Shown in pieces: positions 5,806 to 57,172 of a stretch of 59,817 nucleotides of DNA. This stretch comes from a virus. Taxonomy: Duplodnaviria; Caudoviricetes. The notes beneath the pieces are model-generated. The model made no database searches. It had not been told where the DNA came from and was given only the letters and a program-made list of their open reading frames with translations. The translations under genes were made by a program, and so were the position numbers. How positions within the stretch are numbered: the stretch's first letter is position 1; each line of letters opens with the position of its first letter. Location of the stretch: positions 1-59,817 of the IMG/VR virus record IMGVR_UViG_3300012663_000543; one strand, given 5' to 3'.

Positions 5806-5813
5806 GGCAGACC

Positions 5814-9870: not shown

Positions 9871-9871
9871 T

Positions 9872-41797: not shown

Positions 41798-41799
41798 GA

Positions 41800-42357: not shown

Positions 42358-42433
42358 AAGTACATCCTCTTCAGGTTTGTGGTTGCACAACAAGTTCTCT
42401 TGCTGTAGGAGTGGGACTATCGGAGGATATGCT

Positions 42434-44160: not shown

Positions 44161-44275
44161 TCATGACGGCAAGCTGCCGCGCCATGGAGCGATCTTCATG
44201 CTCGGCAATCTTTGCCAGCTTCCAGTGGTCGCCTTCAGGGACGGCCACGTTTTTGAAGGGGTGGTCCTTTTGCAT
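44072..44275 (-). CDS. Ribbon-helix-helix DNA-binding protein
   Basis: FKNVAV...KLAKIAEHEDRSMARQLAVMI. Confidence 0.7.
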   Translation of the reverse strand: MQKDHPFKNVAVPEGDHWKLAKIAEHEDRSMARQLAVMIREKFDQLGLSYLPTDQKAAPISGKKSKA

Positions 44276-44306
44276 TGTGCATGATCTCCAACAAACTTGC
44301 TTGTGG

Positions 44307-44335
44307 TTTATATACACAATGTTTTTTGTAAACAA
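44307..44335 (-). promoter_or_regulatory. sigma70-like promoter
   Basis: TTGTTT-N17-TATAAA upstream of RHH gene. Confidence 0.55.
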
Positions 44336-44355
44336 GGGCGGTTGCAGGGCCTATG

Positions 44356-44772
44356 TCAGTCTTCTACAGGGCGGCTGTTGAATTCGTCAAGCGTATCTGC
44401 AGCCTTGCGCATTAGGTCGGGGTTGTCCTTAAACGCGCCTAGTCCCCTATTGCAGTGTGTGCACAGAATAAATCGGGCTGTCTTGGTTTTGTGGCAGTGG
44501 TCAAGCTGCCAGCCCTTCTTATGGTGTGGGCTATCGGACCCGCATATGGCGCAGACGCGCCCTTGACTATCAAACATCTTTTCCCATTGCTTCTTGGTGA
44601 AACCTAGCCCCTTGGCGCGTTTCTTGAAATTGGTTTCCTCGCGCCAAGCAGGGTCTTCCGCAGCCTTCTTGCGTTTGGCTTCCCTGCCACGCGCCAAAAT
44701 AAGTTCGCGGTTCTTCATGGCGTACTTTAAGGACGCCGCCCGCCATATGGCTCTCTGCTTTTCGTCAGCCAT
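44356..44772 (-). CDS. HNH endonuclease (endonuclease VII family)
   Basis: CAICG...LDHCH...ILCTHCNRGLG. Confidence 0.88.
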   Translation of the reverse strand: MADEKQRAIWRAASLKYAMKNRELILARGREAKRKKAAEDPAWREETNFKKRAKGLGFTKKQWEKMFDSQGRVCAICGSDSPHHKKGWQLDHCHKTKTARFILCTHCNRGLGAFKDNPDLMRKAADTLDEFNSRPVED

Positions 44773-44788
44773 CGATGTTCGGGGAGAT

Positions 44789-44885
44789 TGGTGAGGGGCG
44801 ATTGGGGAAATAGGCCGTAGCGCAGTCTGATTTCGACCAAAACAAAAACACCCGTTGCCGTTTGTTAGATTGTTTCACGCCCCTC
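44789..44885 (-). ncRNA. Candidate small RNA with tRNA-like acceptor stem and ACCA end
   Basis: 5' GAGGGGCG pairs with CGCCCCTC-ACCA 3'; TTGAAC-N17-TAAAAG directly upstream. Confidence 0.35.
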
Positions 44886-44955
44886 ACAGCCCTTTTATCA
44901 ACGGGCTATGCTTGGTTCAAGGCCCTATGTCCTTAATAATACCATAAAAATCCGG

Positions 44956-45267
44956 CTAAGTCGTGCACTTATTCTTCTCCTTGTATGCCGCCAGTGCATC
45001 CGCGACCCTCTGTCGGGTGTAGTCCGTGCCGTGGTTAAGCACCTTCCATAGATAGGTCCGTCCAAGGCCAAGTTCCTTGCTTGCTGCCGCAATAGACCGA
45101 AAGGTCACCCCATCTAAAGTGATGGGCTTCTTGAAGTTCTTTCCCGTGCCAATGGCATCTGTGTCTCCACGCTGTAGCGCGGAGTAGACAGCCGCTATGG
45201 TCACGTTGTGCGCTTCCGCTGCAGCCTTGACTGTGGGGTATACTACCCCACGTATCCTAATCAGCAT
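44956..45267 (-). CDS. NUMOD1/HTH-like DNA-binding protein
   Basis: Two repeats: IRGVVYPTVKAAA and LDGVTFRSIAAASKELG. Confidence 0.7.
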   Translation of the reverse strand: MLIRIRGVVYPTVKAAAEAHNVTIAAVYSALQRGDTDAIGTGKNFKKPITLDGVTFRSIAAASKELGLGRTYLWKVLNHGTDYTRQRVADALAAYKEKNKCTT

Positions 45268-45449
45268 TTTTTCTCCGCATCTTCCAGTAACTCGGGGTCG
45301 TTGATGTGGTAAATCAGTTCCTCTGCGTCCACGCCTGTTGACAGCAAATAGCGAATGATGTCGCGGATGGTGTGGTCTTCGGTGAAGGTGATGACAGGGT
45401 TGCCATCTGTGTCTTCTGTTTCGATTGGTTTACGTCGGACCTCGGTCAT
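45261..45449 (-). CDS. Hypothetical protein
   Basis: Coupled small acidic ORF. Confidence 0.55.
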   Translation of the reverse strand: MTEVRRKPIETEDTDGNPVITFTEDHTIRDIIRYLLSTGVDAEELIYHINDPELLEDAEKKC

Positions 45450-45730
45450 TGGCCCTCCAGTTCAATTAGCACGGCGCGGGCGCGATTGCCGAAAGGGTCT
45501 TTATAGATGGAAGCGTAAAACCGCAGCGCTTCCACCGCCTTGGCGAGACGGGCTTCTGCGACCACAGCCCTGTCCAGCACATCTGCGGCCTGACCGCTCG
45601 TGGCAAGCAGTTGCAGCGTCAGTTCCTTGTTGAGTTCCAGTAATTCTTCGATGCGGTCGGCGGCTAACGGATCACCATAGAAACTATCAGACCTGTGGAG
45701 TTCGATACGGAACTTATCATCCTCAGTCAT
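45446..45730 (-). CDS. Hypothetical protein
   Basis: Likely start MTEDDK; AADRIEEL...AVEALRFYA. Confidence 0.55.
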   Translation of the reverse strand: MTEDDKFRIELHRSDSFYGDPLAADRIEELLELNKELTLQLLATSGQAADVLDRAVVAEARLAKAVEALRFYASIYKDPFGNRARAVLIELEGQ

Positions 45731-45915
45731 TTCTTCACCCACTTCACTCCAAAGCACAGCGACTGCATCCACCGATGGAACCAGTTTGGTTCGAGGCCCT
45801 TTGCTGGCGTGAAGGTGACGCTCCCCCCTATGTTCGGCCCACCAAACAGATAGCAGGACCACTCTGATTTTTCGGGGTGGGATAGAATCCTAAGTACTTC
45901 TCTTGGGTCAGTCAT
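45727..45915 (-). CDS. Hypothetical protein
   Basis: PNWFHRWMQSLCFGVKW; ATGA coupling to next gene. Confidence 0.55.
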   Translation of the reverse strand: MTDPREVLRILSHPEKSEWSCYLFGGPNIGGSVTFTPAKGLEPNWFHRWMQSLCFGVKWVKK

Positions 45916-46189
45916 TTCTGCCCATCCTTGCCCCAATCTGTATTTCCAAATGCTTTATGCGGTTTTCGTGGGCCAGCATGATTTGGTGCATCCGCAGCCA
46001 GTTTTGGTGGCTATCGCCATGATCAAAACCCAGAAGGGTTTGGATACGCTTCTGCTCTTTGAACATCTCTTCCTGTTCCGGCGTCCGCTTGTCGGTGATG
46101 TAGACCTTCATTGGTTCCACCTCTTTCAGGTGTTCTGCAACCATGTCGGCGCGGGTTTGTTTCCGCTTGAACGTATTCAGCCACTTCAT
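45908..46189 (-). CDS. Hypothetical protein
   Basis: Likely start MKWLNTF, coupled to upstream stop. Confidence 0.5.
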   Translation of the reverse strand: MKWLNTFKRKQTRADMVAEHLKEVEPMKVYITDKRTPEQEEMFKEQKRIQTLLGFDHGDSHQNWLRMHQIMLAHENRIKHLEIQIGARMGRND

Positions 46190-46416
46190 TTTGTCTTCCC
46201 CTTCTTCTTTGCGATGTACTCGAACCGCCCGCCACCAAGCTTGCGCTGGTAGAGGATGCACTTTCCTGCTTCGTGTGCCGCAGCGGCTTCCTTTTTGTGC
46301 GGCCCGCCAGCGTATTGCCCAACGTGGTATACGACCTCGTCGCCAGCTTCGGCTTCAGCCATAGCCACGCTGAACAGCCCTTCGGGCCGCTTGCTTACGT
46401 CATGTCGGGTGCTCAT
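46186..46416 (-). CDS. Hypothetical protein
   Basis: GDEVVYHVG...LYQRK...FEYIA. Confidence 0.65.
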   Translation of the reverse strand: MSTRHDVSKRPEGLFSVAMAEAEAGDEVVYHVGQYAGGPHKKEAAAAHEAGKCILYQRKLGGGRFEYIAKKKGKTK

Positions 46417-47084
46417 GGCTCTGCTCCAGTATACGTCCCGTCCAAGTCCCCCATGAGCGCCAGACCTAGGATGCGGGCGGTCTTGGCGTAGTAGACTGCG
46501 GCGGCGCTGTTGCCGCCAGCGGACCAGACCTTGGCACAGGCAATGAAGCCTACGTCATGCAGACCATGGAGACTACGAACGATAGCCTCGTACCGCCAGC
46601 GCTCCTCGTCCGATGCCTTGGCGTGGGTATAGGTCTCGTCGAAGATTTCATAGTACAACTCAGACGCATTCCAGACCTCGCCGTCTTCGATGAAGGCCCA
46701 AATCTGATCCTCGATAGTCCTGCGGCTGTTCGTTGTGCTCGTGGTACTTGGCACTTGGTCCTTGGACCTTGGCCTTTCGATCTTGCCGTAGATGGCAACG
46801 GCCCGCCACGGAACCCTACTGGCGTGTTCCTCGAAGTTCTCGACGTAGCCTAACTCGAAGGTGTCCCCGATGCGGATGTCGTTCAGTTGGGCCAGCTTCG
46901 GCGCGATGGCGACCGACTGCGGCGCTTCGCCTACGTCCACCACCAGAAAGCCGAAGGCAACGCCAGACGCCGCGATGGACGCGATGTATGCCCTGCCTGT
47001 TCGGACTTTCTCTGGGTCGTAGTTCAAGTTTGTCAGCATTTTATTCTTCGTCCTTTTCCGTGACCTTAACGCTCGTCGGGGCAT
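46413..47084 (-). CDS. Hypothetical protein (OB-like N-half, possible wHTH C-half)
   Basis: Long ORF in early/middle cluster; start uncertain. Confidence 0.6.
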   Translation of the reverse strand: MPRRALRSRKRTKNKMLTNLNYDPEKVRTGRAYIASIAASGVAFGFLVVDVGEAPQSVAIAPKLAQLNDIRIGDTFELGYVENFEEHASRVPWRAVAIYGKIERPRSKDQVPSTTSTTNSRRTIEDQIWAFIEDGEVWNASELYYEIFDETYTHAKASDEERWRYEAIVRSLHGLHDVGFIACAKVWSAGGNSAAAVYYAKTARILGLALMGDLDGTYTGAEP

Positions 47085-47376
47085 CGATCAGAACAGAGGC
47101 GGCTGCAGCAACCATGAACTCAAGCGCCTTGGTGCGGTCGTTGAGCGCATGGTTTACCGACTCAGCGATGAAGGCCGTCAGCGCCCACAAGGCTAGGCTG
47201 GGGGCGATGTCGGCTTGTTTCCACGTCTCGAAGCAGCGATTCATGTCGTCTTCGACCTTTTGAAAAGCTTGCTCCCCCGCCATCTGCGTGTGCGTTACTT
47301 CCTTCACGGGCTCGTCCTTTCTGAGGTATAGGCCGAAGTCACCATAGACTTCTGGGGTGAGTGTTGCATCAGTCAT
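47041..47376 (-). CDS. Hypothetical protein
   Basis: Likely start MTDATL after GAGG. Confidence 0.5.
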   Translation of the reverse strand: MTDATLTPEVYGDFGLYLRKDEPVKEVTHTQMAGEQAFQKVEDDMNRCFETWKQADIAPSLALWALTAFIAESVNHALNDRTKALEFMVAAAASVLIDAPTSVKVTEKDEE

Positions 47377-47554
47377 TTGTGTCATCCTCTTCGTCGTATT
47401 CGTCATCCTCGATCTCGCCAGACCCATGGCAGTTGTCGCACTCCGCCATGTAGCCTTCGATGTCGCCGTAGGGGTTCGAGGCAGAGGCGCGGCAATACCG
47501 CTCGAATTCCCTTTGACCTTGGCCCTCGCACTCTGGGCATGGTTTGATGGTCAT
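47369..47554 (-). CDS. DnaJ-type zinc-finger mini-protein
   Basis: CPECEGQG...CDNCHGSG; acidic tail. Confidence 0.75.
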   Translation of the reverse strand: MTIKPCPECEGQGQREFERYCRASASNPYGDIEGYMAECDNCHGSGEIEDDEYDEEDDTND

Positions 47555-47787
47555 GCTTCCGCTCCTCTCGATTGCTGATACAGCGCGTCTGTCAGGGTTT
47601 GATGCAGCTTGGCGCGGGCAAGGAAGCCCTCTAGCTGGTCGACGTCCTTAAGATCGATTTCGGCAAACTGGTCCATCTCGATGCTGGCCTCGATGATGCG
47701 GAGCATATCGTGCGCCTGATCCTTGCTGATTATGATCATTTCAGGTTTCCTTATTCTGAAAGGTTGGTGTGGTGACAGGCGATCCAT
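47551..47787 (-). CDS. Hypothetical protein
   Basis: Small ORF in cluster; start uncertain. Confidence 0.5.
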   Translation of the reverse strand: MDRLSPHQPFRIRKPEMIIISKDQAHDMLRIIEASIEMDQFAEIDLKDVDQLEGFLARAKLHQTLTDALYQQSRGAEA

Positions 47788-48026
47788 TCGCCGTCAACTT
47801 TTGCGGCAAGGCAGATCACTCCGCCCAACGCTGATGATGCGGCTTGCGCCGCCTTAAACAGTTCGTAAGCCTTGGCTTCCCCGTCTTCGTGCGACCAAGG
47901 AAGTTTGCAGACCATCGCACCTTGGTCCAAGGGGTCGCCGTAGTGGGTGTTGGGGTTGTTATCGACGGAGAAGACGCCCAGTTCATATACGTAGCGGGCA
48001 AAGGTGAGTTTGAGGCTGGTGGTCAT
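47751..48026 (-). CDS. Hypothetical protein
   Basis: Likely start MTTSLK. Confidence 0.5.
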   Translation of the reverse strand: MTTSLKLTFARYVYELGVFSVDNNPNTHYGDPLDQGAMVCKLPWSHEDGEAKAYELFKAAQAASSALGGVICLAAKVDGEWIACHHTNLSE

Positions 48027-48028
48027 GA

Positions 48029-48310
48029 TCAAACCCCATACTTGAGGTTTGCTTCGTCGACGGCGATCCACCTGTCGTTGATCAGCACCGCCAACCCAAT
48101 GCTTTTCTCGTCGTGCCCCAAGATGCGGGCGCAAGCTTTCACGGCATTGAGTTGGTCTATAGCGTTGGTGTAGCCGTCACCAGTGGTCCAATCCAAAATG
48201 GCACAGACTGTGCCGGATGGGATTTCGTCGTTGTAGCCAATCTCTGGATTGAGTGTGACAGAGTAGATGGCAAGCCTATCGACATAGGCAGGGTATAAGA
48301 GGTTAGCCAT
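48029..48310 (-). CDS. Hypothetical protein
   Basis: SD AGGA; coupled ORF. Confidence 0.55.
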   Translation of the reverse strand: MANLLYPAYVDRLAIYSVTLNPEIGYNDEIPSGTVCAILDWTTGDGYTNAIDQLNAVKACARILGHDEKSIGLAVLINDRWIAVDEANLKYGV

Positions 48311-48491
48311 TTGAGTTTTCCTTTGCGGGTTTCATGAGCATTTCCTTGCGCCAGCGGTAGACTGTGGACATCGCAAGGTTGTGCATTTTGGCGGCGGCGT
48401 AGATGCCGTGGTTTTCGGAGTCAGCCAGCACACGGCAGCGCGTGTCGTCAGGCAAGCCATAGGCAGGGTTGTAGACAAACTTGATGATCAT
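48303..48491 (-). CDS. Small HTH protein
   Basis: IYAAAKMHNLAMSTVYRWRK. Confidence 0.65.
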   Translation of the reverse strand: MIIKFVYNPAYGLPDDTRCRVLADSENHGIYAAAKMHNLAMSTVYRWRKEMLMKPAKENSNG

Positions 48492-48940
48492 GCCGCCACC
48501 TCTGGGGTCAGGGCTGCGGTAGAAAGCTTGCGGGCTTCGGCAAACTCGACAAGGCGGCGCGTGACGTCTTCGCGCCCATACTTTGCCTCACCCCAGCCGT
48601 CATGGATCACTTGAAGTTCGTCAAAGGTGTCGCGCAGATCGTCGGTCAGATCGTCGATCTTGATGCCCAAGGCATTCAAGCCACGCACGATAGCGATCTC
48701 AAGCGTGGCGCGTGTACCTACGGGGCGATAGCCAGTGTGGCTGCTTCTGATCGATAGGCCCTCGATCTTGGGGTTGTAGTCTTCGTCTTGGATCAACGCG
48801 CCAATGAAGCAGCGGTTGCCGTTGTCTGGGTCGCGGTAAAGGCATATGACCCCGTCTTCCGAAGCAGAAGCCTTCGGCATGGACAGGAAGTGCGTGGCAA
48901 CCCTGTCAAAGATGGGTTGCAGTATTTCTGGGGAAAGCAT
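48488..48940 (-). CDS. Conserved phage hypothetical protein
   Basis: CLYR...RCFIGALI...LQVIHD. Confidence 0.7.
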   Translation of the reverse strand: MLSPEILQPIFDRVATHFLSMPKASASEDGVICLYRDPDNGNRCFIGALIQDEDYNPKIEGLSIRSSHTGYRPVGTRATLEIAIVRGLNALGIKIDDLTDDLRDTFDELQVIHDGWGEAKYGREDVTRRLVEFAEARKLSTAALTPEVAA

Positions 48941-48984
48941 CTGGGTCTTCCTTTCAGATTGGTGTGGGGTTTGGTAACTTGTTC

Positions 48985-49012
48985 AATATACACAAGTTGG
49001 TGGGGGGTGCAA
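48985..49012 (-). promoter_or_regulatory. sigma70-like promoter for leftward cluster
   Basis: TTGCAC-N16-TATATT with TG upstream of -10. Confidence 0.55.
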
Positions 49013-49154
49013 GAATTATTTTGGGGGTGGGGGCTTGGAGCGCGGGCCTTGGACCTTGGTGCTTGAAGATTGGAGGGGTGATTCGCGGTCCTTGGTTCTC
49101 CCTATATAGGCAAAATCCCATTAACTTTTTTTGTTTTTTTTTTTCGAGATGGTC

Positions 49155-49411
49155 GTGTAAATCGTAAATAGTGTAAATCCAAGGTTTTTTCTCTCGTAAG
49201 TGTATGAAATCGCAAAACAAAGGTCATTTACACTTCCTTTACAAGTGGGTTTTTTAACCCCTGTTATTTACACAGCCTGCCCTAGAGGTGAAAAACTGCT
49301 CGACCAAAAGGTGTTTTCTGACGGAAAAAGTCCTATAGAGGGAACTCGGATTTACACTTTCTGTAAATAATTTACATGCGTTTTACACCCTCGAAAGGGT
49401 GTTTTGTAAAT
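49155..49411. repeat. AT-rich iteron cluster (ATTTACAC/GTGTAAAT), candidate origin
   Basis: About 11 full or partial copies in both orientations next to poly-T tracts. Confidence 0.7.
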
Positions 49412-49534
49412 CGCTGCGATGTCTGATGGTGGTCTTTTTCTTCCCGAACTCCCCATAACTACGTGAAATCGCTGGCCTTGTCAACGCTGTCTCCCTTCTC
49501 TATGGTTGTTCAAACACCACAAGAGAGGTGCTGT

Positions 49535-50191
49535 ATGACCGACGAACCGCCAAAACCCAAGAAAAAGTCGGGGCCCGCCCCTGTCGTGAAGCGGGATAAG
49601 ACTGTTGATCCCAAGCAGTTCCTTATGAATTCCACGGAAAGGGATTTGTTTGATGAGTTTGGCAGAACCCTGACCATCAGGCAGAAGAAGTTTGCCGAAC
49701 TGTACATAGATGGCACGATGTCTGCATCCGAATGCGCGAGACAGGCGGGCTATGCTGTGGCTACGGCGGGCAGCGCCGCCGCAAGCCTTCTTGGCGGCAA
49801 AGAGTTTCCGCACGTACCGAAGTACATCGCCCAGCTTCGCGAGGAGCGCGAACGCATCTACGGCGTGACCCTGACAGGCCAGCTTGAGCGCCTCTATAAA
49901 CTGTCGAGAGGGGCCGAAGAGGCAAAGCAGTTTTCCGCTGCCATCAACGCAGAGAAGATACGCTCCGCGCTTGGCGGTCTGACTGTCGATAGACGCGAGA
50001 GCATCAACACCATCGATCAGATGACGCGAGATCAGATCAGCGCCCGCTTGCTTGAACTTCAACAGAAGTACCCGCAAGCTTTCATTGTCGATGCGGAATA
50101 TGAGGACGTGACCAATGGCGGGACCCGAAGCAAGGGTGTGGGCAAATATGCGCAAATCGCTGCCCCCGAAGACGCACTCGACGAGGATTGA
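49535..50191 (+). CDS. terS: Terminase small subunit
   Basis: LTIRQKKFAELYI...SASECARQAGYA HTH; FSAAINAE. Confidence 0.8.
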   Translation: MTDEPPKPKKKSGPAPVVKRDKTVDPKQFLMNSTERDLFDEFGRTLTIRQKKFAELYIDGTMSASECARQAGYAVATAGSAAASLLGGKEFPHVPKYIAQLREERERIYGVTLTGQLERLYKLSRGAEEAKQFSAAINAEKIRSALGGLTVDRRESINTIDQMTRDQISARLLELQQKYPQAFIVDAEYEDVTNGGTRSKGVGKYAQIAAPEDALDED

Positions 50192-50552
50192 AAATAGGCA
50201 TGGCGGGGGCATTCCCGATGTCCACTTGCTATGGGATGGGGTGGCGATCTGGGTTGAACTTAAGGTGCACAATTCCCGCGCCGTTTTTCTGCGTCCGTCA
50301 CAGGCGGCGTGGCACTCCCGCCAAGCCCACTGCGGGGGCGTCTCATACGTGCTTTGCGGTTGCGCCACCTCCCCCAAGGTCAGAATTTTTAGGGGCTCTG
50401 AGGCGGCTCTGAGGGCCTCTGAGGGCCTACTCTGCGTCCCACCGCTAATCGCCGTCGATAGCATGACCGAAGCTTTGCGACTGCTTCGGCTCGATGCCCT
50501 GCGTCACATGAGTGAGGTTTGCTCTGCGGCCCCGCGCAGCCCTGCGACCTAG
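50115..50552 (+). CDS. PD-(D/E)XK nuclease (VRR-NUC/Holliday junction resolvase-like)
   Basis: RIEN, GIPDV, WVELK, LRPSQAAW. Confidence 0.82.
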   Translation: MAGPEARVWANMRKSLPPKTHSTRIENRHGGGIPDVHLLWDGVAIWVELKVHNSRAVFLRPSQAAWHSRQAHCGGVSYVLCGCATSPKVRIFRGSEAALRASEGLLCVPPLIAVDSMTEALRLLRLDALRHMSEVCSAAPRSPAT

Positions 50553-50650
50553 CGCTAGCCGCCGCCCGATGCAGAAAAGGCCCCTTGCTTTTTAGGGCAA
50601 GGGGCAAGGTGGCCCGCGCTAGGCGATAAGCGCGGGCTGGCAGACTGAAA

Positions 50651-51373
50651 CTAGTGCATGACAATGGCGACTGATTTAGGCGACTTGGTGGCAAGGCCAG
50701 AGCAAAGCTTGCAAGCTTCGCACGTGGTACGCTTTCCCGCTTCCTTGCTAGCAGGGCAAAGCACTTCCTTATCTGGCATGAATTCCGCCAAATCCTTAAG
50801 AATGCGGAAAGTTCTGCGGCCCGCCGCCCAATGGCTTAGCGCTTCGGCGGCGTTGTCAGCGCTTTGCATGACGATATCGGGGCGATATCCCGATGCATGG
50901 CTATAGCCCGTCCAACCTTCGGCTTGGCTCAATAGATCATCCCAAACCTGATCGGGCACGGCGGCGGGGTCTCCATATGTTCCAAGCCTAACCAAGCGCC
51001 CGCGCCCGATATCTGCAGCGCTTGCGGGCTTATAGTGTCCGCGCTTGTACGCTTTCCAAACGATAAGCGGCCCCTGCCCGATGTTAACGTAGCAGGTCCG
51101 GCCCTTGGCAAGCTTGCGGGCGGGATCATCAGTTGCGGCCCCGCGATGCGGGCAAGCCCCGCAGATGGACACGTCAGCGCCCGTCTTGCTTGCGTCACGG
51201 GGGTCAATATCCGCCCGCAGAATATAGGTTTGCATCATTGTGCCCGTCTTGCGGTTTTTGTCGCTATAGGTCGCGATAACGACAATCGGTTGCCCGTCTA
51301 TCAGGCTTGGCCCCTCGTAAAGAATGCCGCTCAAAACAGCTTCGCCCGTCCTGTTACCACGTAGCATTTTCAT
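50651..51373 (-). CDS. Cys-rich, possibly Fe-S/radical-SAM-like early protein
   Basis: NRKTG, ICGACPH...CYV, RLGTYGDP, CPAS...CEACKLC. Confidence 0.65.
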   Translation of the reverse strand: MKMLRGNRTGEAVLSGILYEGPSLIDGQPIVVIATYSDKNRKTGTMMQTYILRADIDPRDASKTGADVSICGACPHRGAATDDPARKLAKGRTCYVNIGQGPLIVWKAYKRGHYKPASAADIGRGRLVRLGTYGDPAAVPDQVWDDLLSQAEGWTGYSHASGYRPDIVMQSADNAAEALSHWAAGRRTFRILKDLAEFMPDKEVLCPASKEAGKRTTCEACKLCSGLATKSPKSVAIVMH

Positions 51374-51486
51374 TTGTCCGCCCTTTTTTGTGAAGCGCCC
51401 AAGGCCCAAGGCCCAAGGGTCGCGGTTTAATGTCTTAGTTTCAACACCTTATCATCTTGTTTAGAATATACAAGCACAAAAGTGCA

Positions 51487-51564
51487 CGGCTCTGCGGCCC
51501 CGCGCCGCTTTTTATTTGTTTTTTGTTTGGGGCCCTGCGGCTCTGCGGCCCCGCGCCGCTTTTT
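51487..51564. repeat. 27-bp direct repeat (2 copies; partial copy at 50521)
   Basis: CGGCTCTGCGGCCCCGCGCCGCTTTTT at 51487 and 51538. Confidence 0.9.
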
Positions 51565-51667
51565 CCTGTCCGAGGCCCGAGGAACGAGGGCCTCGGGCCG
51601 TGATCCTCGTGCGTAAGCAAGAGGATCAGAAAACCAGTCCGAGCTTTGCTCGGTCCGTTTCTATCAG

Positions 51668-51755
51668 ACAGCTTCCGAGCGACTAGCGAGGTCCTTTCCT
51701 TTCTTTCTTTCTTCTTCGTCAAACAGCTTCCGAGCGACTAGCGAGGTCCTTTCCT
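51668..51755. repeat. 33-bp direct repeat (2 copies)
   Basis: ACAGCTTCCGAGCGACTAGCGAGGTCCTTTCCT at 51668 and 51723. Confidence 0.9.
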
Positions 51756-51801
51756 CTGTCAAAGGGAATGGACGGCCCGATTGCTCGGACCGCCCTCTTT
51801 G

Positions 51802-52020
51802 TCAGTAGTTGTCGTCGTAGTTGTCCATCATCATCACGTGCCAGCGGTAGACCCGAGCGTCTGCCCTATCGAGTTGCGCTTGGCTCTCGAGTTGTATGCA
51901 GCGGAAGTCGGGGTAGAGCTTTTTGACGCGAGCCCAAGCTTTGGCCTTGCTGTGGGCCTTGAACTCTCGGACGAAGTCGCTGCCGTCTTCTCCCTTCAGT
52001 GTCGCGTGATACGTTGTCAT
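51802..52020 (-). CDS. Early hypothetical protein
   Basis: SD GGAGG; coupled to upstream gene. Confidence 0.6.
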   Translation of the reverse strand: MTTYHATLKGEDGSDFVREFKAHSKAKAWARVKKLYPDFRCIQLESQAQLDRADARVYRWHVMMMDNYDDNY

Positions 52021-52214
52021 TCTTCGTCCTCCGACAGTTCAAGTCTCGATGATCCGACATGGTTGCCATTGGCGTCGTACAGGGAGCCTGTGCCGCCGCC
52101 GAGGGCAAGCGACCAGATGATGTCCCGTAGGATCTTCTCAAGTTGGATCGCCTCGTTTCCGTCTTGGAAGGAGTCGTTACTGCTGTCGATGTTGATGGTG
52201 AGCTGAACTCGCAT
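52017..52214 (-). CDS. Early hypothetical protein
   Basis: SD GGAG; LYDANGNHVG. Confidence 0.65.
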   Translation of the reverse strand: MRVQLTINIDSSNDSFQDGNEAIQLEKILRDIIWSLALGGGTGSLYDANGNHVGSSRLELSEDEE

Positions 52215-52262
52215 TGTTGTCTCCGTGGGTTGGTGGGGTGACCGAAGCCACCCCGTTTGCTG

Positions 52263-52562
52263 TCAGTTGAGTATCGTGAGGTTGATCGTCAGGCCCTTCT
52301 TACCGTGGGCCTCGATCCATTCGGGAGTTGCTGCGACGAGCCGTCCGTAGGTCAGGATGTCGACGGCGTAGGTGTCTCCCATCTCGAACTCCCCGTAGGT
52401 GTGGGGCGACTTAGCTGCGACCATCCACCGAGCGTATTTATCCTTGGCCTCGTTGGCTGGGGTCTTGTACGTCTTCAGGATGCGCCACTCCCAGCCTTGC
52501 GGTGCTTGGTAGATGGCATACGGCATGTCAGTCTTGCGGGATTTGGCGAAGGGGTTGCTCAT
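52263..52562 (-). CDS. Early conserved hypothetical protein
   Basis: NPFAKSR...WEWRILKTY...YARW...SPHTYG..EMGDTY. Confidence 0.7.
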   Translation of the reverse strand: MSNPFAKSRKTDMPYAIYQAPQGWEWRILKTYKTPANEAKDKYARWMVAAKSPHTYGEFEMGDTYAVDILTYGRLVAATPEWIEAHGKKGLTINLTILN

Positions 52563-52774
52563 TGTGCGGTGTCCTTGATGAAGGTTACGAGGTCATTGAG
52601 TGCGAGTTGATACTGCCCGCGCTTGTACGGCTTGCCAGTTATGGCGGAAGCTTTCTTAAGGATGGCGAGGCCACTGTACTGGCTGTTCTTCATTCCTGCC
52701 GACAGCATCTTAAGGTGAGCCTTGATGAAGATAGCCCCGATCCGATTGTCGGGTCCGTCGATGTACGTTGTCAT
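52559..52774 (-). CDS. Early hypothetical protein
   Basis: SD AGGAG; ITGKPYKRGQY. Confidence 0.65.
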   Translation of the reverse strand: MTTYIDGPDNRIGAIFIKAHLKMLSAGMKNSQYSGLAILKKASAITGKPYKRGQYQLALNDLVTFIKDTAQ

Positions 52775-52824
52775 TGTTGTCTCCTGTGGGTTGGATCGAG
52801 GGCCTTTCAGCCCCCGAAGTTTTA

Positions 52825-53115
52825 TCAGAATAGTATCTCGTCGTCGATGAAGATGTCCACCTTGATACGTGTCAGAGATCGTATCCAGTGGTCGTAGTCC
52901 GAGTGCTTTTCAGCAATCGTGACAGGGCCGACGTGGTGCTCCCAGCATCGAATGAAGAGCGTCGCGTCGCAGTCCTCTTCAAGGTAGAGCTTCTCGCCCC
53001 GCATGAAGCTGAACTGGCTGAAGTCGGAGGTGTCAAGCAGTGCCTGTCGCGCCTCCTGTATCGAGACCTCCAGCCATGCGTGACCGGGGTCGCTGTGCAT
53101 CGTGAATGTTTTCAT
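52825..53115 (-). CDS. Early conserved hypothetical protein
   Basis: DPGHAWLEV...YLEEDCDA. Confidence 0.7.
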   Translation of the reverse strand: MKTFTMHSDPGHAWLEVSIQEARQALLDTSDFSQFSFMRGEKLYLEEDCDATLFIRCWEHHVGPVTIAEKHSDYDHWIRSLTRIKVDIFIDDEILF

Positions 53116-53168
53116 CGTGTGGTTCCTTTGTTGTGGGTGGGGAGACCTGTCGGCCTCCCCGGTTGCAG

Positions 53169-53573
53169 TTAGAGTTGCGACGTGATGGCGTTGCTTGCAA
53201 GCTTCTTCATCATCGCCGTCAGCGGGTTTATGAAGTCCTCGTCCATGCCGAGGTCCTTGGCCCGATCCATGACGCGACCAAGCATCAGCATGAACTCGTC
53301 ATGGTCAAGCTCCGAGCGGGACTTGAGGGCCTTTATGTACTCGCGGGCCTCGATGACCATGTTGTCTATGTCCCCGACGGTCTGCCCACGGAAGTACTTG
53401 TAGGTGTGGAGGCTGTCCTCGCGAACCTTGTACTGGAGGTCCAAGCTTACTGGGCTCCAATCGTTGGTGGAGATCCGCCACGTGACCTCCGGATCGAGCA
53501 GGTCCCGATCCTTGAGCTCCTGCTTGATCTCGACCATCGTGACGTCCAAGTCCCATTTGCTGTAGAGTGTCAT
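53169..53573 (-). CDS. Early hypothetical protein (first gene of leftward leading operon)
   Basis: SD AAGGA; 134 aa. Confidence 0.65.
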   Translation of the reverse strand: MTLYSKWDLDVTMVEIKQELKDRDLLDPEVTWRISTNDWSPVSLDLQYKVREDSLHTYKYFRGQTVGDIDNMVIEAREYIKALKSRSELDHDEFMLMLGRVMDRAKDLGMDEDFINPLTAMMKKLASNAITSQL

Positions 53574-53606
53574 GTCGTTCTTCCTTCTTACTGTTAGGCT
53601 CTTCAG

Positions 53607-54270
53607 TACTGAACAGCCATTCCCGCCTCGCGAGAACGCCCCCAGCGGGACATATTACTTTGAAAAGTCAAGATTTGGCTTTTTGCATGTCTGTTTTTTC
53701 CGATGATCTTGGTTCGCCCGTGATGCGCTCGCGTATCACGGTTAACAGCGAACCAGCACTCAGTAAAAACTGATATGCGGAAAGTTGAATCGACCCCTTC
53801 AGGGGTTGACTTTTTGATGTCGTATTGCCTCCGCGCTTTACGCGGCGGTAATACGACTAAGTAATATGGTACGATGGCTCGGGGCGGAGCAAGGTGGGAT
53901 GGTTGTTTAGTATAAAAACAGGCTTGCCCGCGCTTGCGCGGTTAACAGCAAGCCTTCCTCTTTGCCCGGGAGGGCAAGTCCCCCTGCTGCGCGGCTTGCC
54001 CGCGTCTGGCAGGGGGATACTTTCACCTTATTTTCACCTTATTTTCACTCTGTTTGCGATAGGGATCGTTACCCGAATGGGCCGAGACCTCTTGTCTCGG
54101 CTCGGCCCTCTTGGGGGCCGAGTAGAGCCCGGGCCCCCTTGGGCATCGCCATGCTACGCTAGGGGTAACTTGGACCAAAGTCCCACCGAGACGCTCAATG
54201 CGTCGAAGGGGGGACCCCCCTTTTTGGGGGCCGAGCGCTGCGGGTGCGGTATATTACTGGTTTACCAGAT
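53607..54270 (+). ncRNA. Candidate large structured ncRNA (or ssDNA structural element)
   Basis: Nested helices with many G-U pairs on the + strand only; CUUG and GNRA tetraloops; repeated UUAACA bulge module. Confidence 0.6.
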
Positions 54271-54368
54271 TTAATCGTTCCCAGTTCCATTGGCCGAGGC
54301 CCACCCACCCATCTCCCCAAAACAAAAACAAGAAATCCACAACCCAAAAAATACAGGTACAATTTCGT

Positions 54369-54397
54369 TTGACTTGTTTCATTTCAACAAGTATCAA
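54369..54397 (+). promoter_or_regulatory. sigma70-like promoter
   Basis: TTGACT-N17-TATCAA upstream of gapR-like gene. Confidence 0.6.
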
Positions 54398-54420
54398 GAG
54401 CAAATCAAACGGAGGACCAC

Positions 54421-54705
54421 ATGGCGTTGAAGTACAAGGAAGACCCGGATTTCGCTGACCACAACAAGCGGGCTAACGATACGGCTGCGAGAGAGTTGAA
54501 AGAGATGCTGGAGCGGATAGAGTCTGCACAGGCCGTAAAGGCTGACGCATCTAAGGATGAAACTGACATATATGTTGTGGCAAAGTCTAAGGGCTATAAC
54601 ATAAGGGCGTTGAAGCGTTTGGTCCGCGAGCGGCAGCGCGATGCTGACGAACTGCGGGAAGAGCGCGACGCTTTGGATCTGTACAAACTGCTTATAGGGA
54701 TGTGA
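54421..54705 (+). CDS. gapR: GapR-like (DUF2312) nucleoid-associated protein
   Basis: ELKEMLERIE...DIYVVAKSKGYNIRALKRLVRER...LDLYKLLIGM; SD GGAGG. Confidence 0.82.
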   Translation: MALKYKEDPDFADHNKRANDTAARELKEMLERIESAQAVKADASKDETDIYVVAKSKGYNIRALKRLVRERQRDADELREERDALDLYKLLIGM

Positions 54706-54708
54706 GCT

Positions 54709-55173
54709 ATGACCAAATTCTGCCCAAAGATAATCACCTACGAGGGTATCCAGTTCAAGGGTATCCATTTTGACGACAACGGCGAGTACGACGTCCAGTT
54801 CGAGCTTGACCCCGGCGAGCGGTTGCCGAGATGGCTTGTCAATGCCTTGATGGATGGCGAGTTGTACGCGGTCCCCGAGTTGTACGGGGCCCCCGAGTTG
54901 TACACGGCCCCCGAGTTGTACGCGGCCCCCGAGTCTACGTGCTTGCTCCTTGGCAAGGATGACGACGTTATGAACATCTATCCGGAGGATTGGCTGATGT
55001 ACAGAGAGGACGTCGGGATCTTTATGGTGTCGAACAACGAGCTTCTGGAAGACTTTGACATCGCTTACCCAGACCAAGAGCCACAGGTCATCCCGCAGGA
55101 CGCCGTCGTTTTGGTAACGGGGGTTTCTGCCAAGGGCGAGACCCGGCCCAACGTCGAGGGTGTTCCCGTCTAA
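54709..55173 (+). CDS. Acidic hypothetical protein with 4x ELYxxP repeat
   Basis: Tandem 18-bp repeats 54859..54930. Confidence 0.55.
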   Translation: MTKFCPKIITYEGIQFKGIHFDDNGEYDVQFELDPGERLPRWLVNALMDGELYAVPELYGAPELYTAPELYAAPESTCLLLGKDDDVMNIYPEDWLMYREDVGIFMVSNNELLEDFDIAYPDQEPQVIPQDAVVLVTGVSAKGETRPNVEGVPV

Positions 55174-55196
55174 GATTTCTGTGGTAGTATGTACAT

Positions 55197-55291
55197 ACAC
55201 GAGGCGTCTCCTCCCCGCTGTCGTGTCTGTAGGCCTCTGCCCCAAGGGCATGAGACCGCAAAGGCCTCTCGCATAAAAGCGGGGGGCCTTT
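55197..55291 (+). ncRNA. Candidate sRNA with anti-SD (UCUCCUCCC) loop
   Basis: Extended -10 TGgTAGTAT; hairpin with CTCCTCCC loop; terminal hairpin. Confidence 0.5.
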
Positions 55292-55348
55292 GTCATTGAG
55301 CGCTCCGTCCTTTTGCGTTATCCTGCCGCAAACGATGGAGCTTGTCTT

Positions 55349-57172
55349 ATGTGCAATGGCGGTGGGAATAGCGTAAAGAAGTTTGCCGACGGCGGCAGCA
55401 CGGGCACGAAGTCCAAGTCCGCCCCCAGCCGCCCCGACAGCGGCGGGTCCAATCCCAAGCCCGCGCCCTCTAGGGCCTCGGTCCCCGCACCTAAGACCAC
55501 TGTTGCAGCCGCCCCAAACCGGGCCGAGGCATACCGCCGCAACGCCCCCGACCGCGAGCTAGATGGGCTGGTTCAACAAAACCTGTCGGCCCCGCTTCCC
55601 AACGCCTCTCCCGTAATGCCTCGGATCACTTACGAAACCACCGGACAGGCCATCGAGCGCCTTCGTGGATCGTCTAAGGATTACGCGGCAAAGAATCTGG
55701 ATAAGACCACGCCCGCGTCGGGCTATGCAAACATGCCTTGGTCGCAGTACGGCGCAAAGCTTGCCCAAAACATCATCCCCAGCACCTTGGACATGGGGAT
55801 CGAAGCCGCCGACATGGCGAACAATCCGCTGCGCACCGCCTCAACCTTGGTAAAGGGCATAGGTCAGCTAGGCTACGGCGCGGGATCTAAGATTGCCCGC
55901 AACGTCTTTGGCTACGAGGGCGACAGGACTGCCGAAGCGCCGCTCGATGCCGCCATTGCCAGCACAAAGGGCCGATACGGGTTCGGGGAGCCGGGCGAGT
56001 TCTGGAAGAATCTTGCGGAGGACCCAGCATCCTACGCTGCAGAAATTGCGGGGCTTCGTCTTGGCGCTGGAAAAGTGGCTGGCAAAGTAGCGGGGGTCGT
56101 GGACGATGCGCAAAAGGCGCAGTACGCCCGGTTTATGGACGCCACAACACCCAAGACCGACGTCAGCCCAATGGCTGGCTTCCAGTATTACAGGCCGTCG
56201 CCTTGGGAAGCAGCCATGCTGGGCCCCGTTTCAGGGCCCAATCCTTGGGCAAACGTGGGTTTGCCTAACTCTGGTCCGAACAAGACCCAGCAGATGTACT
56301 TGGACAGCGTAAACGATGCGGAGTTCTTCCGCACTCAGGGCGCTCCCGAAAAGTTTATCCAAGAGCAGACAGGCATCATGACCATCCCCGTCAAGAACCC
56401 GGCGGGGTCCTCGCTTGGTGATCTGGACGTTGCAGCCGTGCTGCCCCAAGAGATGATCGATTTGCGGCCCAGCCGCGCCACTAACTACGGGGCCAACATC
56501 TTTGACGACCCAGATCTTGCCTCCGTCTGGTACGACCCAAGGACTTGGGGCCGAGGATCTGTGGGCGGGTATCACTATAAAGACCCTCAAACGGGCATCC
56601 ATCAGATTGGCCTCAATCCAAAAGCATCCCAAACCAAGAAAGACTCTGTCATAAGTCACGAGATGACCCACGCCGACCTAGAAGAGGCTGGTTTGGGCAC
56701 AGACATCGTTGGCGCAAACGACGAAAACATGCTTTGGAGCAAGAACAAGTGGCTCGACTCTCTTAAGACTTCGGGAAAAGCCGCCAAGGATCCTGCCGAT
56801 AAGGCCGCTATTGCAGAAGCCCGTAAAAATCTGGCGAAGATGACGTCCTTTGAGCTCTATAGCCTCAACCCGGGGGAGATGCTGGCCCGTCTTTCTCAAG
56901 GCGACCCAACCATGGCCCGCCGCCTGACGGCGCTAGAACTCCTGAACCCCTATATCACCACCAGAGGGGGCCCCCTTACTCGCGGTATTGCGGCCCTTCG
57001 CACTTCCGTGCAAACCGAAACAAACCCGTTCATGAGCAAACTCAAAGGCATTCTTGAGCCTTATGGGATCGACCCCACATTCGACGCTCATGGAACTGTT
57101 CCCATGGACATCGACAAGGCCATCGTTGCGGGCCTCGGCAGCACGTACATACCAAGGTACAACAAGCCCTAA
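55349..57172 (+). CDS. Virion/polyvalent-type protein with zincin metallopeptidase motif
   Basis: MCNGGG start, KFADGG motif; SHEMTHA and downstream Y...PGEMLAR. Confidence 0.7.
   Translation: MCNGGGNSVKKFADGGSTGTKSKSAPSRPDSGGSNPKPAPSRASVPAPKTTVAAAPNRAEAYRRNAPDRELDGLVQQNLSAPLPNASPVMPRITYETTGQAIERLRGSSKDYAAKNLDKTTPASGYANMPWSQYGAKLAQNIIPSTLDMGIEAADMANNPLRTASTLVKGIGQLGYGAGSKIARNVFGYEGDRTAEAPLDAAIASTKGRYGFGEPGEFWKNLAEDPASYAAEIAGLRLGAGKVAGKVAGVVDDAQKAQYARFMDATTPKTDVSPMAGFQYYRPSPWEAAMLGPVSGPNPWANVGLPNSGPNKTQQMYLDSVNDAEFFRTQGAPEKFIQEQTGIMTIPVKNPAGSSLGDLDVAAVLPQEMIDLRPSRATNYGANIFDDPDLASVWYDPRTWGRGSVGGYHYKDPQTGIHQIGLNPKASQTKKDSVISHEMTHADLEEAGLGTDIVGANDENMLWSKNKWLDSLKTSGKAAKDPADKAAIAEARKNLAKMTSFELYSLNPGEMLARLSQGDPTMARRLTALELLNPYITTRGGPLTRGIAALRTSVQTETNPFMSKLKGILEPYGIDPTFDAHGTVPMDIDKAIVAGLGSTYIPRYNKP

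What the first reader, a model, noticed from the sequence alone, without database searches (positions are those of the whole stretch)
53607..53912. ~300-nt nested multibranch fold with strand-specific G-U pairs: candidate undescribed large phage ncRNA
Seen, on the + strand: 53607-53628 pairs with 53892-53912 (3 G-U, one bulge); 53637-46 with 53877-86; CATATTACTT 53651-60 with 53859-68; 53662-71 with 53806-15; an uninterrupted 20-bp helix 53672-91/53772-91 containing 6 G-U pairs; plus internal hairpins 53710-55, 53794-805 and 53819-57. Almost every non-Watson-Crick position is G-U, and these become A-C mismatches on the other strand. Inference: selection for a single-stranded fold of the + strand, not a dsDNA palindrome. 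It lies in the largest gene-free gap, at the divergence between early and late arms. I do not recognise it as tRNA, tmRNA, RNase P or an intron. An alternative is an ssDNA element (single-strand origin or Frpo-like promoter) near the genome end.
Basis: partly seen in the sequence, partly recalled or inferred. Interest (0 to 1): 0.9.

Follow-up and report, generated by a model that had tools for sequence, protein, structure and literature searches.

The report
Swappable folded noncoding phage cassette
The 300-base fold is real and conserved; it is one version of an optional, non-coding DNA module that related lake phages swap among themselves, built around a small, previously uncatalogued bulged hairpin, and it is not yet known whether it acts as RNA or as single-stranded DNA.

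Summary
The fold at 53607-53912 exists as described: 122 pairs and the strongest 300-nt fold in the genome. The + strand has 16 G-U pairs against at most one A-C position. A second phage lineage, about 78% identical, keeps the architecture, with 14 of 122 pairs changed on both sides. Rfam has no match. Substitutions show no codon periodicity.

Three things change the picture.
- **The conserved unit is a ~40-nt hairpin, not the 300-nt fold.** Its form is stem A, then CCG-stem B-CGG, a TTAACA bulge, then stem A'. It occurs twice in the window. It also occurs in unrelated phages, including a 5.7-kb ssDNA phage, and in a phage-like contig of a Rhodobacteraceae isolate.
- **The ~500-bp block is an exchanged, optional cassette.** It is 96-99% identical in phages whose flanks are 70-85% identical. 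It is non-homologous in phages with 98-99% identical flanks, and absent from other relatives.
- **A sigma-70-like promoter appears only when the + strand is folded**.

No transcript evidence was obtainable. My odds are + strand RNA about 0.4 and a Frpo/sso-like ssDNA element about 0.3.

The parts
53607..53912 (+). Large nested multibranch fold: 122 bp, 16 G-U.
   Evidence: Homologues in L015/L020/L065/L088/L127 fold alike (-172.7 to -174.4 kcal/mol), as do L128/L130 (-161.5). 14 of 122 pairs are changed on both sides.
53709..53756 (+). TTAACA-bulged hairpin, copy 1, at the tip of the large fold. Stem A is TTGGTTCGC/GCGAACCAG; stem B is 10 bp; the bulge is TTAACA.
   Evidence: Model R1 hit at 53711-53755: 50.5 bits, E 4e-13. 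Alignment A4.
53920..53955 (+). TTAACA-bulged hairpin, copy 2, 200 nt after copy 1 and just outside the large fold.
   Evidence: Model R1 hit at 53921-53955: 49.8 bits, E 7e-13.
53806..53811 (+). TTGACT, a -35-like hexamer inside helix 53660-69/53808-17. It is invariant in both lineages.
53819..53857 (+). Branch hairpin of 16 bp. When it loops out, the -35-like and -10-like hexamers come to 16-18 nt spacing.
53867..53875 (+). TGgTACGAT, extended -10-like, lying in the conserved unpaired internal loop 53869-74. The second lineage has TGgTAAGAT.
53592..53600 (+). TGtTAGGCT, extended -10-like, 6-7 nt before the first base of the fold. It is not kept in the L015 lineage.
   Evidence: Read by eye; the scan did not flag it.
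53587..54055 (.). The exchanged cassette. It is replaced by unrelated sequence in L002-L004. In L128/L130 it is 96-99% identical over 53612-54011 (in L130 a further 100 of 100 over 54012-54111) while the flanks are 68-92% identical per 100-nt bin (most 70-85%).
   Evidence: A contig in run X2 joins 53586 to 54056.
53960..54017 (+). Two GC-rich hairpins inside the exchanged block, kept with changes in the L015 lineage.
54018..54050 (+). Three 11-bp direct repeats (TTTCACCTTAT-like).
54054..54088 (+). 35 nt identical to the 3' end of PA0719 in Pseudomonas filamentous phage Pf1. It is kept as an island in the L004 allele.
54209..54231 (+). G6-A-C6-T5-G5, near-invariant in all six aligned lineages. 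It looks like a terminator on the + strand.
   Evidence: The scan did not flag it.
53169..53573 (-). First gene of the leftward (early/replication) arm, 134 aa, no family match. Its start codon is 34 nt from the fold.
54421..54705 (+). First gene of the rightward arm, a GapR-like DNA-binding protein.
   Evidence: PF10073, E 1.7e-13.

Best explanation
The fold is one allele of an optional ~500-bp non-coding cassette. The cassette sits between the two divergent gene arms of a clade of freshwater HTVC023P-like podophages and is exchanged horizontally among them. It works through the folded + strand. Its conserved working part is a ~40-nt bulged hairpin with the invariant core GC/CCG...CGG/UUAACA/GC and freely covarying stems; this hairpin most likely serves as a handle for a host or phage factor.

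My preferred mechanism is that the + strand is transcribed as a structured non-coding RNA that carries one to three such hairpins. It would start near 53607 and stop at or before the conserved G6AC6U5 element at 54209-54231. The variable remainder of the fold would be scaffold, or would set specificity.

Shown: the fold, its conservation, the strand bias, the motif family, and the exchange and optional nature of the cassette.

Inferred: transcription, the ends of the RNA, and the existence of a binding partner.
For: - **Strand bias.** G-U against A-C is 16 to 0-1 in the window and 10-11 to 0-2 in the second lineage. This includes runs of three and two adjacent G-U pairs in the 20-bp helix, and eight G-U pairs that are the same in both lineages. 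Runs of G-U are nearly neutral in RNA but weaken a DNA helix (established nearest-neighbour knowledge, recalled).
- **Compensatory change.** 14 of 122 pairs are changed on both sides, against 0-2 when the partners are slid. In the hairpin alignment, 12 of 15 pairs are changed on both sides and 97.5% of cells are paired.
- **Orientation.** The motif strand matches the next downstream gene in the 8 contexts where that gene can be read: window type, L004/L083, L018/L110, L089/L102, L028, L064, L251 and the ssDNA phage L139. In L139 it is the coding strand. In L093 and L010 only the upstream gene is clear, and it diverges from the motif.
- **Possible ends of a transcript.** An extended -10-like word lies 6-7 nt before the first base of the fold. 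A near-invariant hairpin plus T-run lies on the + strand ahead of the rightward arm's promoter region. In L251 a TGgTAGAAT lies 57 nt upstream of the motif and a GC hairpin with TTTT about 55 nt downstream (by eye).
- **Not coding.** 71 substitutions fall 27/25/19 over the three codon phases.
Against: - **No transcript seen.** The only RNA run (contigs only) had pieces on the flanking genes and none on the element, and that sample may carry another allele.
- **Promoter and terminator readings are weak.** The upstream -10-like word is not kept in the L015 lineage. The simple scans flag no + promoter before the fold in the window, L004, L015 or L005, and nothing at all in L251.
- **Strand bias is not general.** It is weaker in L064 (18 against 8) and L083 (10 against 8) and absent in L004 (9 against 11).
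- **Thin covariation.** It rests on two lineages only (4 distinct rows). Arm-to-arm gene conversion in a DNA palindrome could mimic it. One measure, further pair types, was below the shuffled mean (23 against 26.6).
- **Position.** The cassette abuts the start of the leftward arm (10-40 nt) and lies 300-900 nt from the rightward genes. That fits a role tied to the leftward arm better.
- **Folded-strand promoter.** It points to the ssDNA reading.
Confidence: 0.4

Rival explanations
1. A single-strand DNA element of the Frpo/sso type. When the + strand is single-stranded or extruded, it folds into a mock duplex that host RNA polymerase recognises. The polymerase copies the 5' arm and runs leftwards. 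This either transcribes the early arm (5' UTR of about 68 nt before the ATG at 53573) or makes a primer for complementary-strand synthesis. The TTAACA hairpin would be a conserved recognition core, comparable to the conserved RSB sequence of plasmid single-strand origins.
For: - **Promoter only in the folded strand.** With branch hairpin 53819-57 looped out, TTGACT (53806-11, in a duplex, invariant) and TGgTACGAT (-10 hexamer 53870-75, in the conserved unpaired loop) come to 16-18 nt. This meets the same 9-of-12 rule as the scan tool. The second lineage keeps TTGACT...TGgTAAGAT at the same lengths.
- **Control.** 5 of 409 hairpins in the window give such a match when removed, and 1 of those 5 has the TG.
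- **No linear promoter.** No conventional promoter for the leftward arm is found in the gap of the window, L004, L015 or L005.
- **Links to ssDNA phages.** The motif lies twice on the viral (coding) strand in the non-coding region of a complete 5.7-kb ssDNA phage with a rolling-circle Rep. The next block holds 35 nt identical to Pf inoviruses in the same orientation.
- **Position.** The cassette abuts the first gene of the leftward arm.
- **Match to known sso properties.** Passages of PMC5703833 (read) describe sso elements as ~160 nt, strand- and orientation-specific, primed by RNA polymerase, needing Pol I, host-limiting, movable and sharing a short conserved sequence. The phage encodes PolA. 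Passages of PMC11541004 describe Frpo as a folded single strand presenting -35 and -10.
Against: - This is a dsDNA podophage with no known single-stranded stage. Extruding a 300-bp imperfect palindrome from a duplex would be costly.
- The folded promoter is found in the window type only, not in L004, L083, L018 or L028. Matches in L064, L089 and L251 point the other way or are weak.
- It was found after I had looked at several promoter-like patterns.
- Runs of adjacent G-T mispairs weaken a DNA helix.
- The simple promoter scan may just be blind to this host's promoters.
Confidence: 0.3
2. A DNA palindrome without a single-strand function of its own. In this reading only the small TTAACA hairpin, or a site within it, is functional, for example as a recombination, nicking or protein-binding site. 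The long arms would be inverted duplications made by template switching at that hairpin, kept alike by arm-to-arm gene conversion, and spread as a selfish or neutral cassette.
For: - In L064 the outer arms of a 450-nt fold centred on the motif are an inverted partial copy of the 5' end of the neighbouring gene.
- Three unrelated alleles (window, L004/L083, L064) all place the motif at the tip of a long imperfect palindrome.
- The cassette is optional and moves between phages.
- The motif is sporadic: 0 of 5 relatives of the ssDNA phage and 0 of 4 cultured relatives of the window phage have it.
- Strand bias is absent in L004.
Against: - Gene conversion does not explain 16 G-T against 0-1 A-C, nor the eight G-T pairs shared by both lineages.
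- Sequence-invariant unpaired loops and helices inside the fold (53806-15, 53862-91) point to function beyond pairing.
- No transposase or recombinase gene lies beside it.
- No target-site duplication is shared by the window and L015 ends.
Confidence: 0.15
3. A long structured 5' leader of the leftward early operon, read as the - strand RNA from a promoter to the right of the cassette.
For: The - strand also folds far better than shuffles (z -10.8). The first - gene starts 34 nt from the fold. The conserved right-hand part of the gap (54153-54303) could hold the promoter.
Against: The mismatch pattern favours the + strand: G-U on + become A-C on -. The invariant bulge reads UGUUAA on the - strand, and model R1 scores the - strand at only 10.8-11.5 bits. 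No - strand promoter was found.
Confidence: 0.07

Closest known systems
Single-strand origins (ssoA, ssoU, ssoT, ssoW) of rolling-circle plasmids
   Same: Both are large (~160 nt or more) imperfect folds that work in one strand and one orientation. Both have a short conserved sequence inside otherwise variable structure and a cassette-like, movable position, and both are dispensable but helpful. sso elements are primed by RNA polymerase and need Pol I (passages of PMC5703833). Here a promoter-like pair appears only in the fold, the phage has PolA, and the motif occurs in an ssDNA phage.
   Different: There is no sequence likeness to RSB or CS-6 (recalled consensus, not tested with a model). 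The host replicon here is a 60-kb dsDNA phage. No ssDNA stage and no priming have been shown.
Frpo/ssi single-stranded DNA promoters of conjugative plasmid leading regions
   Same: Both are folded single strands that present -35 and -10 as a mock duplex immediately upstream of the first-expressed genes (passages of PMC11541004). Here TTGACT, 16-18 nt, TGgTACGAT appear only after folding and point into the early arm.
   Different: Plasmid DNA enters as a single strand, whereas phage DNA of this kind enters as a duplex. [quoted passage not shown] The feature is seen in only one allele family.
Hairpin promoters of phage N4 virion RNA polymerase (recalled)
   Same: Both are strand-specific DNA hairpins in front of early genes, extruded from supercoiled DNA.
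   Different: N4 hairpins are 5-7 bp stems with 3-nt loops read by a virion RNA polymerase (recalled). No such polymerase is found here: the 1441-aa virion-type protein looks like an LPD38 polyvalent protein.
RNase III processing hairpins of the phage T7 early transcript, and the intergenic bulged-hairpin families noted earlier in this scan (e1-6024294, e1-5753667)
   Same: Both are two-turn hairpins with freely changing stems around an invariant unpaired core, repeated in a phage genome.
   Different: T7 sites lie between genes of one operon. These lie only in the divergent gap, one to three per genome, and the core is a one-sided 6-nt bulge.
Integron attC sites and integrase-less attC clusters
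   Same: Both are folded, strand-specific sites linked with the exchange of cassettes, and both contain a GTT...AAC-type word.
   Different: In attC the GTT of R' pairs with the AAC of R'' (recalled). Here GTTAACA is an unpaired bulge. The cassette carries no gene and no integrase is nearby.

Membership tests
Any Rfam 15 family (tRNA, tmRNA, RNase P, 6S, introns, ribozymes, GOLLD/ROOL/HEARO and others) | A covariance-model score at or above the family's gathering threshold. | tested here: not met
   0 matches in the whole window. At E up to 10 in 53400-54500 there were only five matches, all far below threshold and none on 53640-53954. 0 matches in 12 motif-bearing loci. ARAGORN found 0 genes.
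Frpo/ssi single-strand promoter | -35 and -10 hexamers brought into a duplex at 16-18 nt spacing by folding of one strand. | tested here: met
   TTGACT, 16-18 nt, TGgTACGAT after the branch 53819-57 loops out; the same in L015. Chance rate is 5 of 409 hairpins.
Frpo/ssi single-strand promoter | The DNA is single-stranded when the element acts, and RNA polymerase starts on it. | not testable with these tools
   No data on replication or entry intermediates. The phage is a dsDNA podovirus type.
Frpo/ssi single-strand promoter | Sequence homology to known Frpo/ssi elements. | not tested
   The reference sequences are in a supplementary table that I could not open. A blastn of the gap against phage records gave only the Pf match.
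sso of rolling-circle replicons | It lies on the displaced (viral) strand of a rolling-circle replicon, in one orientation only. | tested here: inconclusive
   Met for the two motif copies in the ssDNA phage L139. The window phage has no Rep among the 42 ORFs I scanned against Pfam or PHROGs; the ORFs I did not scan remain unexamined.
Structured non-coding RNA gene | A transcript of the folded strand. | tested here: inconclusive
   One RNA run, held as contigs only, had no piece on the element.
Structured non-coding RNA gene | Pairs kept through compensatory changes in homologues. | tested here: met
   14 of 122 pairs, with slid controls at 0-2. 12 of 15 pairs in the hairpin family. The caveat is that there are only two lineages for the large fold.
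MITE / IS-derived palindromic element | Terminal inverted repeats flanked by a target-site duplication, with many copies. | tested here: not met
   There is one copy in the genome. The TA at both ends of the window copy is not matched in the L015 lineage.
Integron attC | R''/R' boxes (RYYYAAC / GTTRRRY, recalled) paired with each other, and a gene cassette between sites. | tested here: not met
   GTTAACA is an unpaired bulge, and the block holds no gene.
Protein-coding gene | A third-position excess of substitutions. | tested here: not met
   71 substitutions fall 27/25/19, although a 68-codon + frame is open in both lineages.

The most novel reading that the evidence does not exclude
Double-stranded DNA phages carry swappable single-strand 'ignition' cassettes. 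These would be folds of one DNA strand that create a host-polymerase promoter or priming site only when extruded, in the manner of plasmid Frpo and sso elements. They would share a recognition hairpin (the TTAACA bulge) with ssDNA phages of the same hosts, so that early-arm expression or strand priming, and perhaps host range, is set by an exchangeable non-coding module.
Probability: 0.25. Interest if true: 0.85.

Novelty: new variant of a known kind. Interest (0 to 1): 0.62.

Why it matters
The work defines an uncatalogued structured motif. Its core is invariant and its stems covary. It is shared by at least three unrelated phage types: 60-kb podophages, a 48-kb phage and a 5.7-kb ssDNA phage.

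It also shows that a purely non-coding block at the junction of the early and late arms behaves as a mobile, polymorphic allele within natural phage populations. In one lake sample two alleles coexist at roughly 7x and 70x depth on a shared backbone of about 130-170x.

If it is an RNA, it is a new large phage ncRNA family with a modular handle. If it is a fold-dependent promoter or priming site, it carries the Frpo/sso principle from plasmids to dsDNA phages. Either way it is a concrete target for work on what controls early expression in the most abundant group of aquatic podophages. It has a culturable entry point: the motif-bearing contig of a Falsirhodobacter flavus isolate.

Tried and rejected
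**Transcription.** The look-up of sequencing runs gave 19 DNA runs and 1 RNA run, with shares of 0.07-0.50. I laid X20 (RNA) and X1-X3. X20 gave six small contigs on 51000-55417 and none on 53574-54318. These are contigs only and the sample may carry another allele, so this says nothing either way.

**Homologues by DNA search.**
- Phage records: only a 35-nt Pf match, and no near match for 40000-53000.
- A mis-set gap in a pattern wasted one viral scan.
- The 19-mer scan of metagenomes gave 2 true loci and 3 chance loci.
Only one (L251) had both stems.

**Candidate partner proteins.**
- The AEP primase (PF22548) does not track the motif. It is present in 4 of 4 motif-less cultured relatives and absent from the complete 48-kb motif-bearing phage.
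- A virion RNA polymerase: the 1441-aa protein resembles LPD38 polyvalent proteins.

**Other families considered and set aside.**
- CRISPR-repeat mimic, because the stems differ between copies.
- Retron, because no RT appeared among the ORFs I scanned.
- CtrA box, because there is no TTAA 7 nt upstream.
- TTAACA as a sigma-70 -35 in linear DNA, because no -10 lies at 16-18 nt in any instance.

**Extended -10 words upstream of the motif** are not consistent across loci.

**Literature.**
- Nothing on non-coding elements of HTVC023P-type phages turned up in term searches of PMC9599517 and PMC12753301.
- The 10-mer occurs only in unrelated primer lists (search listing).
- PMC12328805 (passages) gives PA0719 as of unknown function.
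- Supplementary tables were closed. This includes the Frpo reference sequences of PMC11541004, which could have allowed a homology test.

**Earlier scan notes.** No look-alike in other genomes.

**An error of mine.** My crude ORF caller mis-called - strand ORFs at 8724-10053. The real genes there are on the + strand.
Full report
**What the window is.** It is a 59,817-bp IMG/VR virus record rated complete, with no end repeats.
- It encodes TerL, portal, major capsid protein and an SU10-type adaptor on the + strand.
- On the - strand it encodes PolA, a UvrD-like helicase and an AEP primase.
- Its nearest named relatives are the HTVC023P-type podophages: Pelagibacter phages HTVC023P and HTVC027P, phage 023Pt_psg01 and lake phage DSL-LC04. 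TerL is 52-59% and PolA 47-52% identical at the protein level.
- Runs that hold the stretch are almost all freshwater or lake metagenomes.
- The finding lies in the 847-nt gap between a - gene starting at 53573 and a GapR-like + gene starting at 54421.

- The + strand of 53607-53912 folds at -162.4 kcal/mol (z -11.4). The - strand folds at -130.7 (z -10.8). With DNA parameters the values are -83.3 and -70.6.
- It is the best 300-nt fold in the genome on either strand.
- The fold has 122 pairs, 16 of them G-U. The five single mismatches are TT, TC, GG, CC and CA.
- The energy gap between strands is not unusual for this genome. The strand argument therefore rests on the 16 to 0-1 count of G-U against A-C.
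- Rfam and ARAGORN give nothing.

**Homologues.** Two groups carry the same element.
- L128 and L130 are 98% identical to the window over the element.
- L015, L020, L065, L088 and L127 are about 78% identical.
- All fold into the same architecture.
- On the alignment (8 rows, 4 distinct, two lineages), 95.1% of cells pair. 14 of 122 pairs are changed on both sides, against 0-2 when partners are slid by 1-3 columns. Eight G-U pairs are identical in both lineages.
- The second lineage has 10-11 G-U against 0-2 A-C.
- Against this, only two lineages exist. One measure (further pair types, 23 against a shuffled mean of 26.6) does not exceed shuffles. Gene conversion between the arms of a palindrome could imitate compensation.
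- The 71 substitutions fall 27/25/19 over the codon phases, so the stretch is not coding.

**The conserved core is smaller.** Both the window and a non-homologous allele (L004) contain GGTTAACAGC inside a hairpin within a hairpin.
- A pattern scan of IMG/VR gave 130 matches in the loci held. 24 of them had a closing stem of 6 pairs or more.
- The same pattern in prokaryote genomes gave 123 matches, of which one had both stems. This serves as a control for my selection.
- I aligned 18 instances, which I had chosen because they pair. 12 of 15 pairs are changed on both sides and 97.5% of cells pair. The core GC/CCG...CGG/TTAACA/GC is invariant.
- The covariance model R1 finds exactly two copies in the window, both on the + strand: 53711-55 and 53921-55. 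The next best hit scores 12.9 bits.
- R1 also found instances outside its training set, in L040 and as second copies in L018 and L110.
- Carriers include several groups. There are distant relatives of the window phage. There is a complete 48-kb phage whose TerL is only 21% identical. There is a complete 5.7-kb ssDNA phage with a rolling-circle Rep, where the motif lies twice on the coding strand. There is also a phage-like 12.8-kb contig of a Falsirhodobacter flavus isolate.
- The motif is sporadic. 0 of 4 cultured relatives have it. 0 of 5 relatives of the ssDNA phage have it. It is also absent from L005-L008.

**The block is an exchanged, optional cassette.**
- L002-L004 share flanks at 98.4% and 99.1% identity, yet have unrelated sequence across 53587-54055 apart from a 34-nt island. 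That unrelated sequence again forms a ~300-nt nested fold with the motif at its tip.
- Conversely, L128/L130 are 96-99% identical across 53612-54011, while their flanking genes are 68-92% identical per 100-nt bin, most bins at 70-85%.
- A distant phage, L083, shares only the L004-type element, at 74% identity.
- In DNA run X2 the flanks have depth 128-179. The window's allele has depth 7, and a contig of depth 70 joins 53586 to 54056.
- L005/L006 have only about 150 nt in place of the block.
- In L064 the arms of a 450-nt fold around the motif are an inverted partial copy of the neighbouring gene's 5' end.
- Strand bias differs by allele: L064 18 against 8, L083 10 against 8, L004 9 against 11.

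**RNA or DNA.** The evidence divides.
- For RNA:
  - The strong G-U over A-C bias, with runs of adjacent G-U pairs.
  - Co-orientation with the downstream genes in every context I could read.
  - An extended -10-like word just before the fold.
  - A near-invariant G6AC6T5G5 on the + strand.
  - None of the promoter or terminator readings is flagged by the simple scans, and the upstream word is not kept in the second lineage.
- For ssDNA:
  - When hairpin 53819-57 loops out of the folded + strand, TTGACT (in a duplex, invariant) and TGgTACGAT (in the conserved unpaired loop) stand 16-18 nt apart. The second lineage keeps TTGACT...TGgTAAGAT. In a control, 5 of 409 hairpins of the window give such a match.
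  - Such a promoter would copy the 5' arm and run into the early arm, with a leader of about 68 nt.
  - The feature is not general. It was found in none of L004, L083, L018 and L028, and the matches in L064, L089 and L251 are of another orientation or quality. I also found it only after trying several ideas.
  - The links to ssDNA phages (the motif in L139, and 35 nt shared with Pf inoviruses) fit this reading. They also fit RNA, because in those phages the viral strand is the coding strand.
  - The properties of plasmid sso and Frpo elements (passages) match many features of the cassette. Against that, this is a dsDNA phage with no known single-stranded stage.

**Verdict.** Its mode of action remains open. 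My odds are:
- + strand RNA: 0.40
- Frpo/sso-like ssDNA element: 0.30
- Palindromic by-product around a small functional site: 0.15
- - strand leader: 0.07
- Anything else: the remainder

Noticed in passing
window 54054-54088 (and 54122-54150): 35 nt are identical to the 3' end of the PA0719 ORF of Pseudomonas filamentous phage Pf1, and 97% identical in 11 other Pf-type records. A second patch (AGAGCCCGG..GGGCATCGCC) also resembles Pf1 sequence just downstream. The 34-nt island is kept in the otherwise unrelated L004 allele. PA0719 has no known function, and its C-terminal part is reported as divergent (PMC12328805, passages).
   Followed up: partly
window 54080-54298: Five copies of GGCCGAG (four +, one -) lie within 220 nt, out of 22 in the whole 59.8-kb window. 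This may be a set of regulator sites in the conserved right half of the gap.
   Followed up: no
window 54209-54231: G6-A-C6-T5-G5 is nearly invariant across six lineages that otherwise differ by 20-30%. It can form two mutually exclusive hairpins.
   Followed up: partly
window 54190-54208: The small hairpin GACGC-TCAAT-GCGTC is kept through stem changes in the L015 lineage (ATCCGC-TCAAT-GCGGAT) with the same loop.
   Followed up: no
L139 (= L112), whole 5707-bp contig: A complete small ssDNA phage with a REP_ORF2-G2P Rep, a 540-aa protein without a family match and an M15 peptidase. It carries two TTAACA hairpins in its 432-nt non-coding region. Five relatives (56-59% identical in the 540-aa protein) lack them.
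   Followed up: partly
L251 1039-1406: A phage-like 12.8-kb contig (assembler coverage 165) of a Falsirhodobacter flavus isolate carries one TTAACA hairpin in a divergent gap. This is a culturable system, and it hints that the hosts are Rhodobacteraceae-like alphaproteobacteria, which fits the GapR gene.
   Followed up: partly
L064 (reverse strand) 20-470: A 450-nt nested fold whose outer arms are an inverted partial duplicate of the 5' end of the adjacent gene, centred on the motif hairpin.
   Followed up: partly
window 37369-37704 (-): A small protein with the N-terminal domain of dATP/dGTP diphosphohydrolases (PF18909, E 3e-27), next to PolA. No PurZ-like protein appeared among the ORFs I scanned.
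   Followed up: no
window 9620-9871 (+): An 83-aa lysine- and glycine-rich basic protein in the head module. It is the only protein-level link (tblastx) between the window and several distant motif-bearing contigs: L018, L064, L083, L089 and L110.
   Followed up: no
window 31133-35458 (+): A 1441-aa protein without a Pfam or PHROG hit. By language-model features it resembles LPD38 'polyvalent' virion proteins.
   Followed up: partly
L028 (reverse strand) 4255-6080: An unrelated 48-kb phage has a ~1.3-kb gap. It holds two full motif copies and a third degenerate one (TGGAACA bulge), then a very AT-rich stretch full of TATAAT-like words, then a consensus TTGACA-17-TATAAT promoter before the rightward genes.
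   Followed up: no
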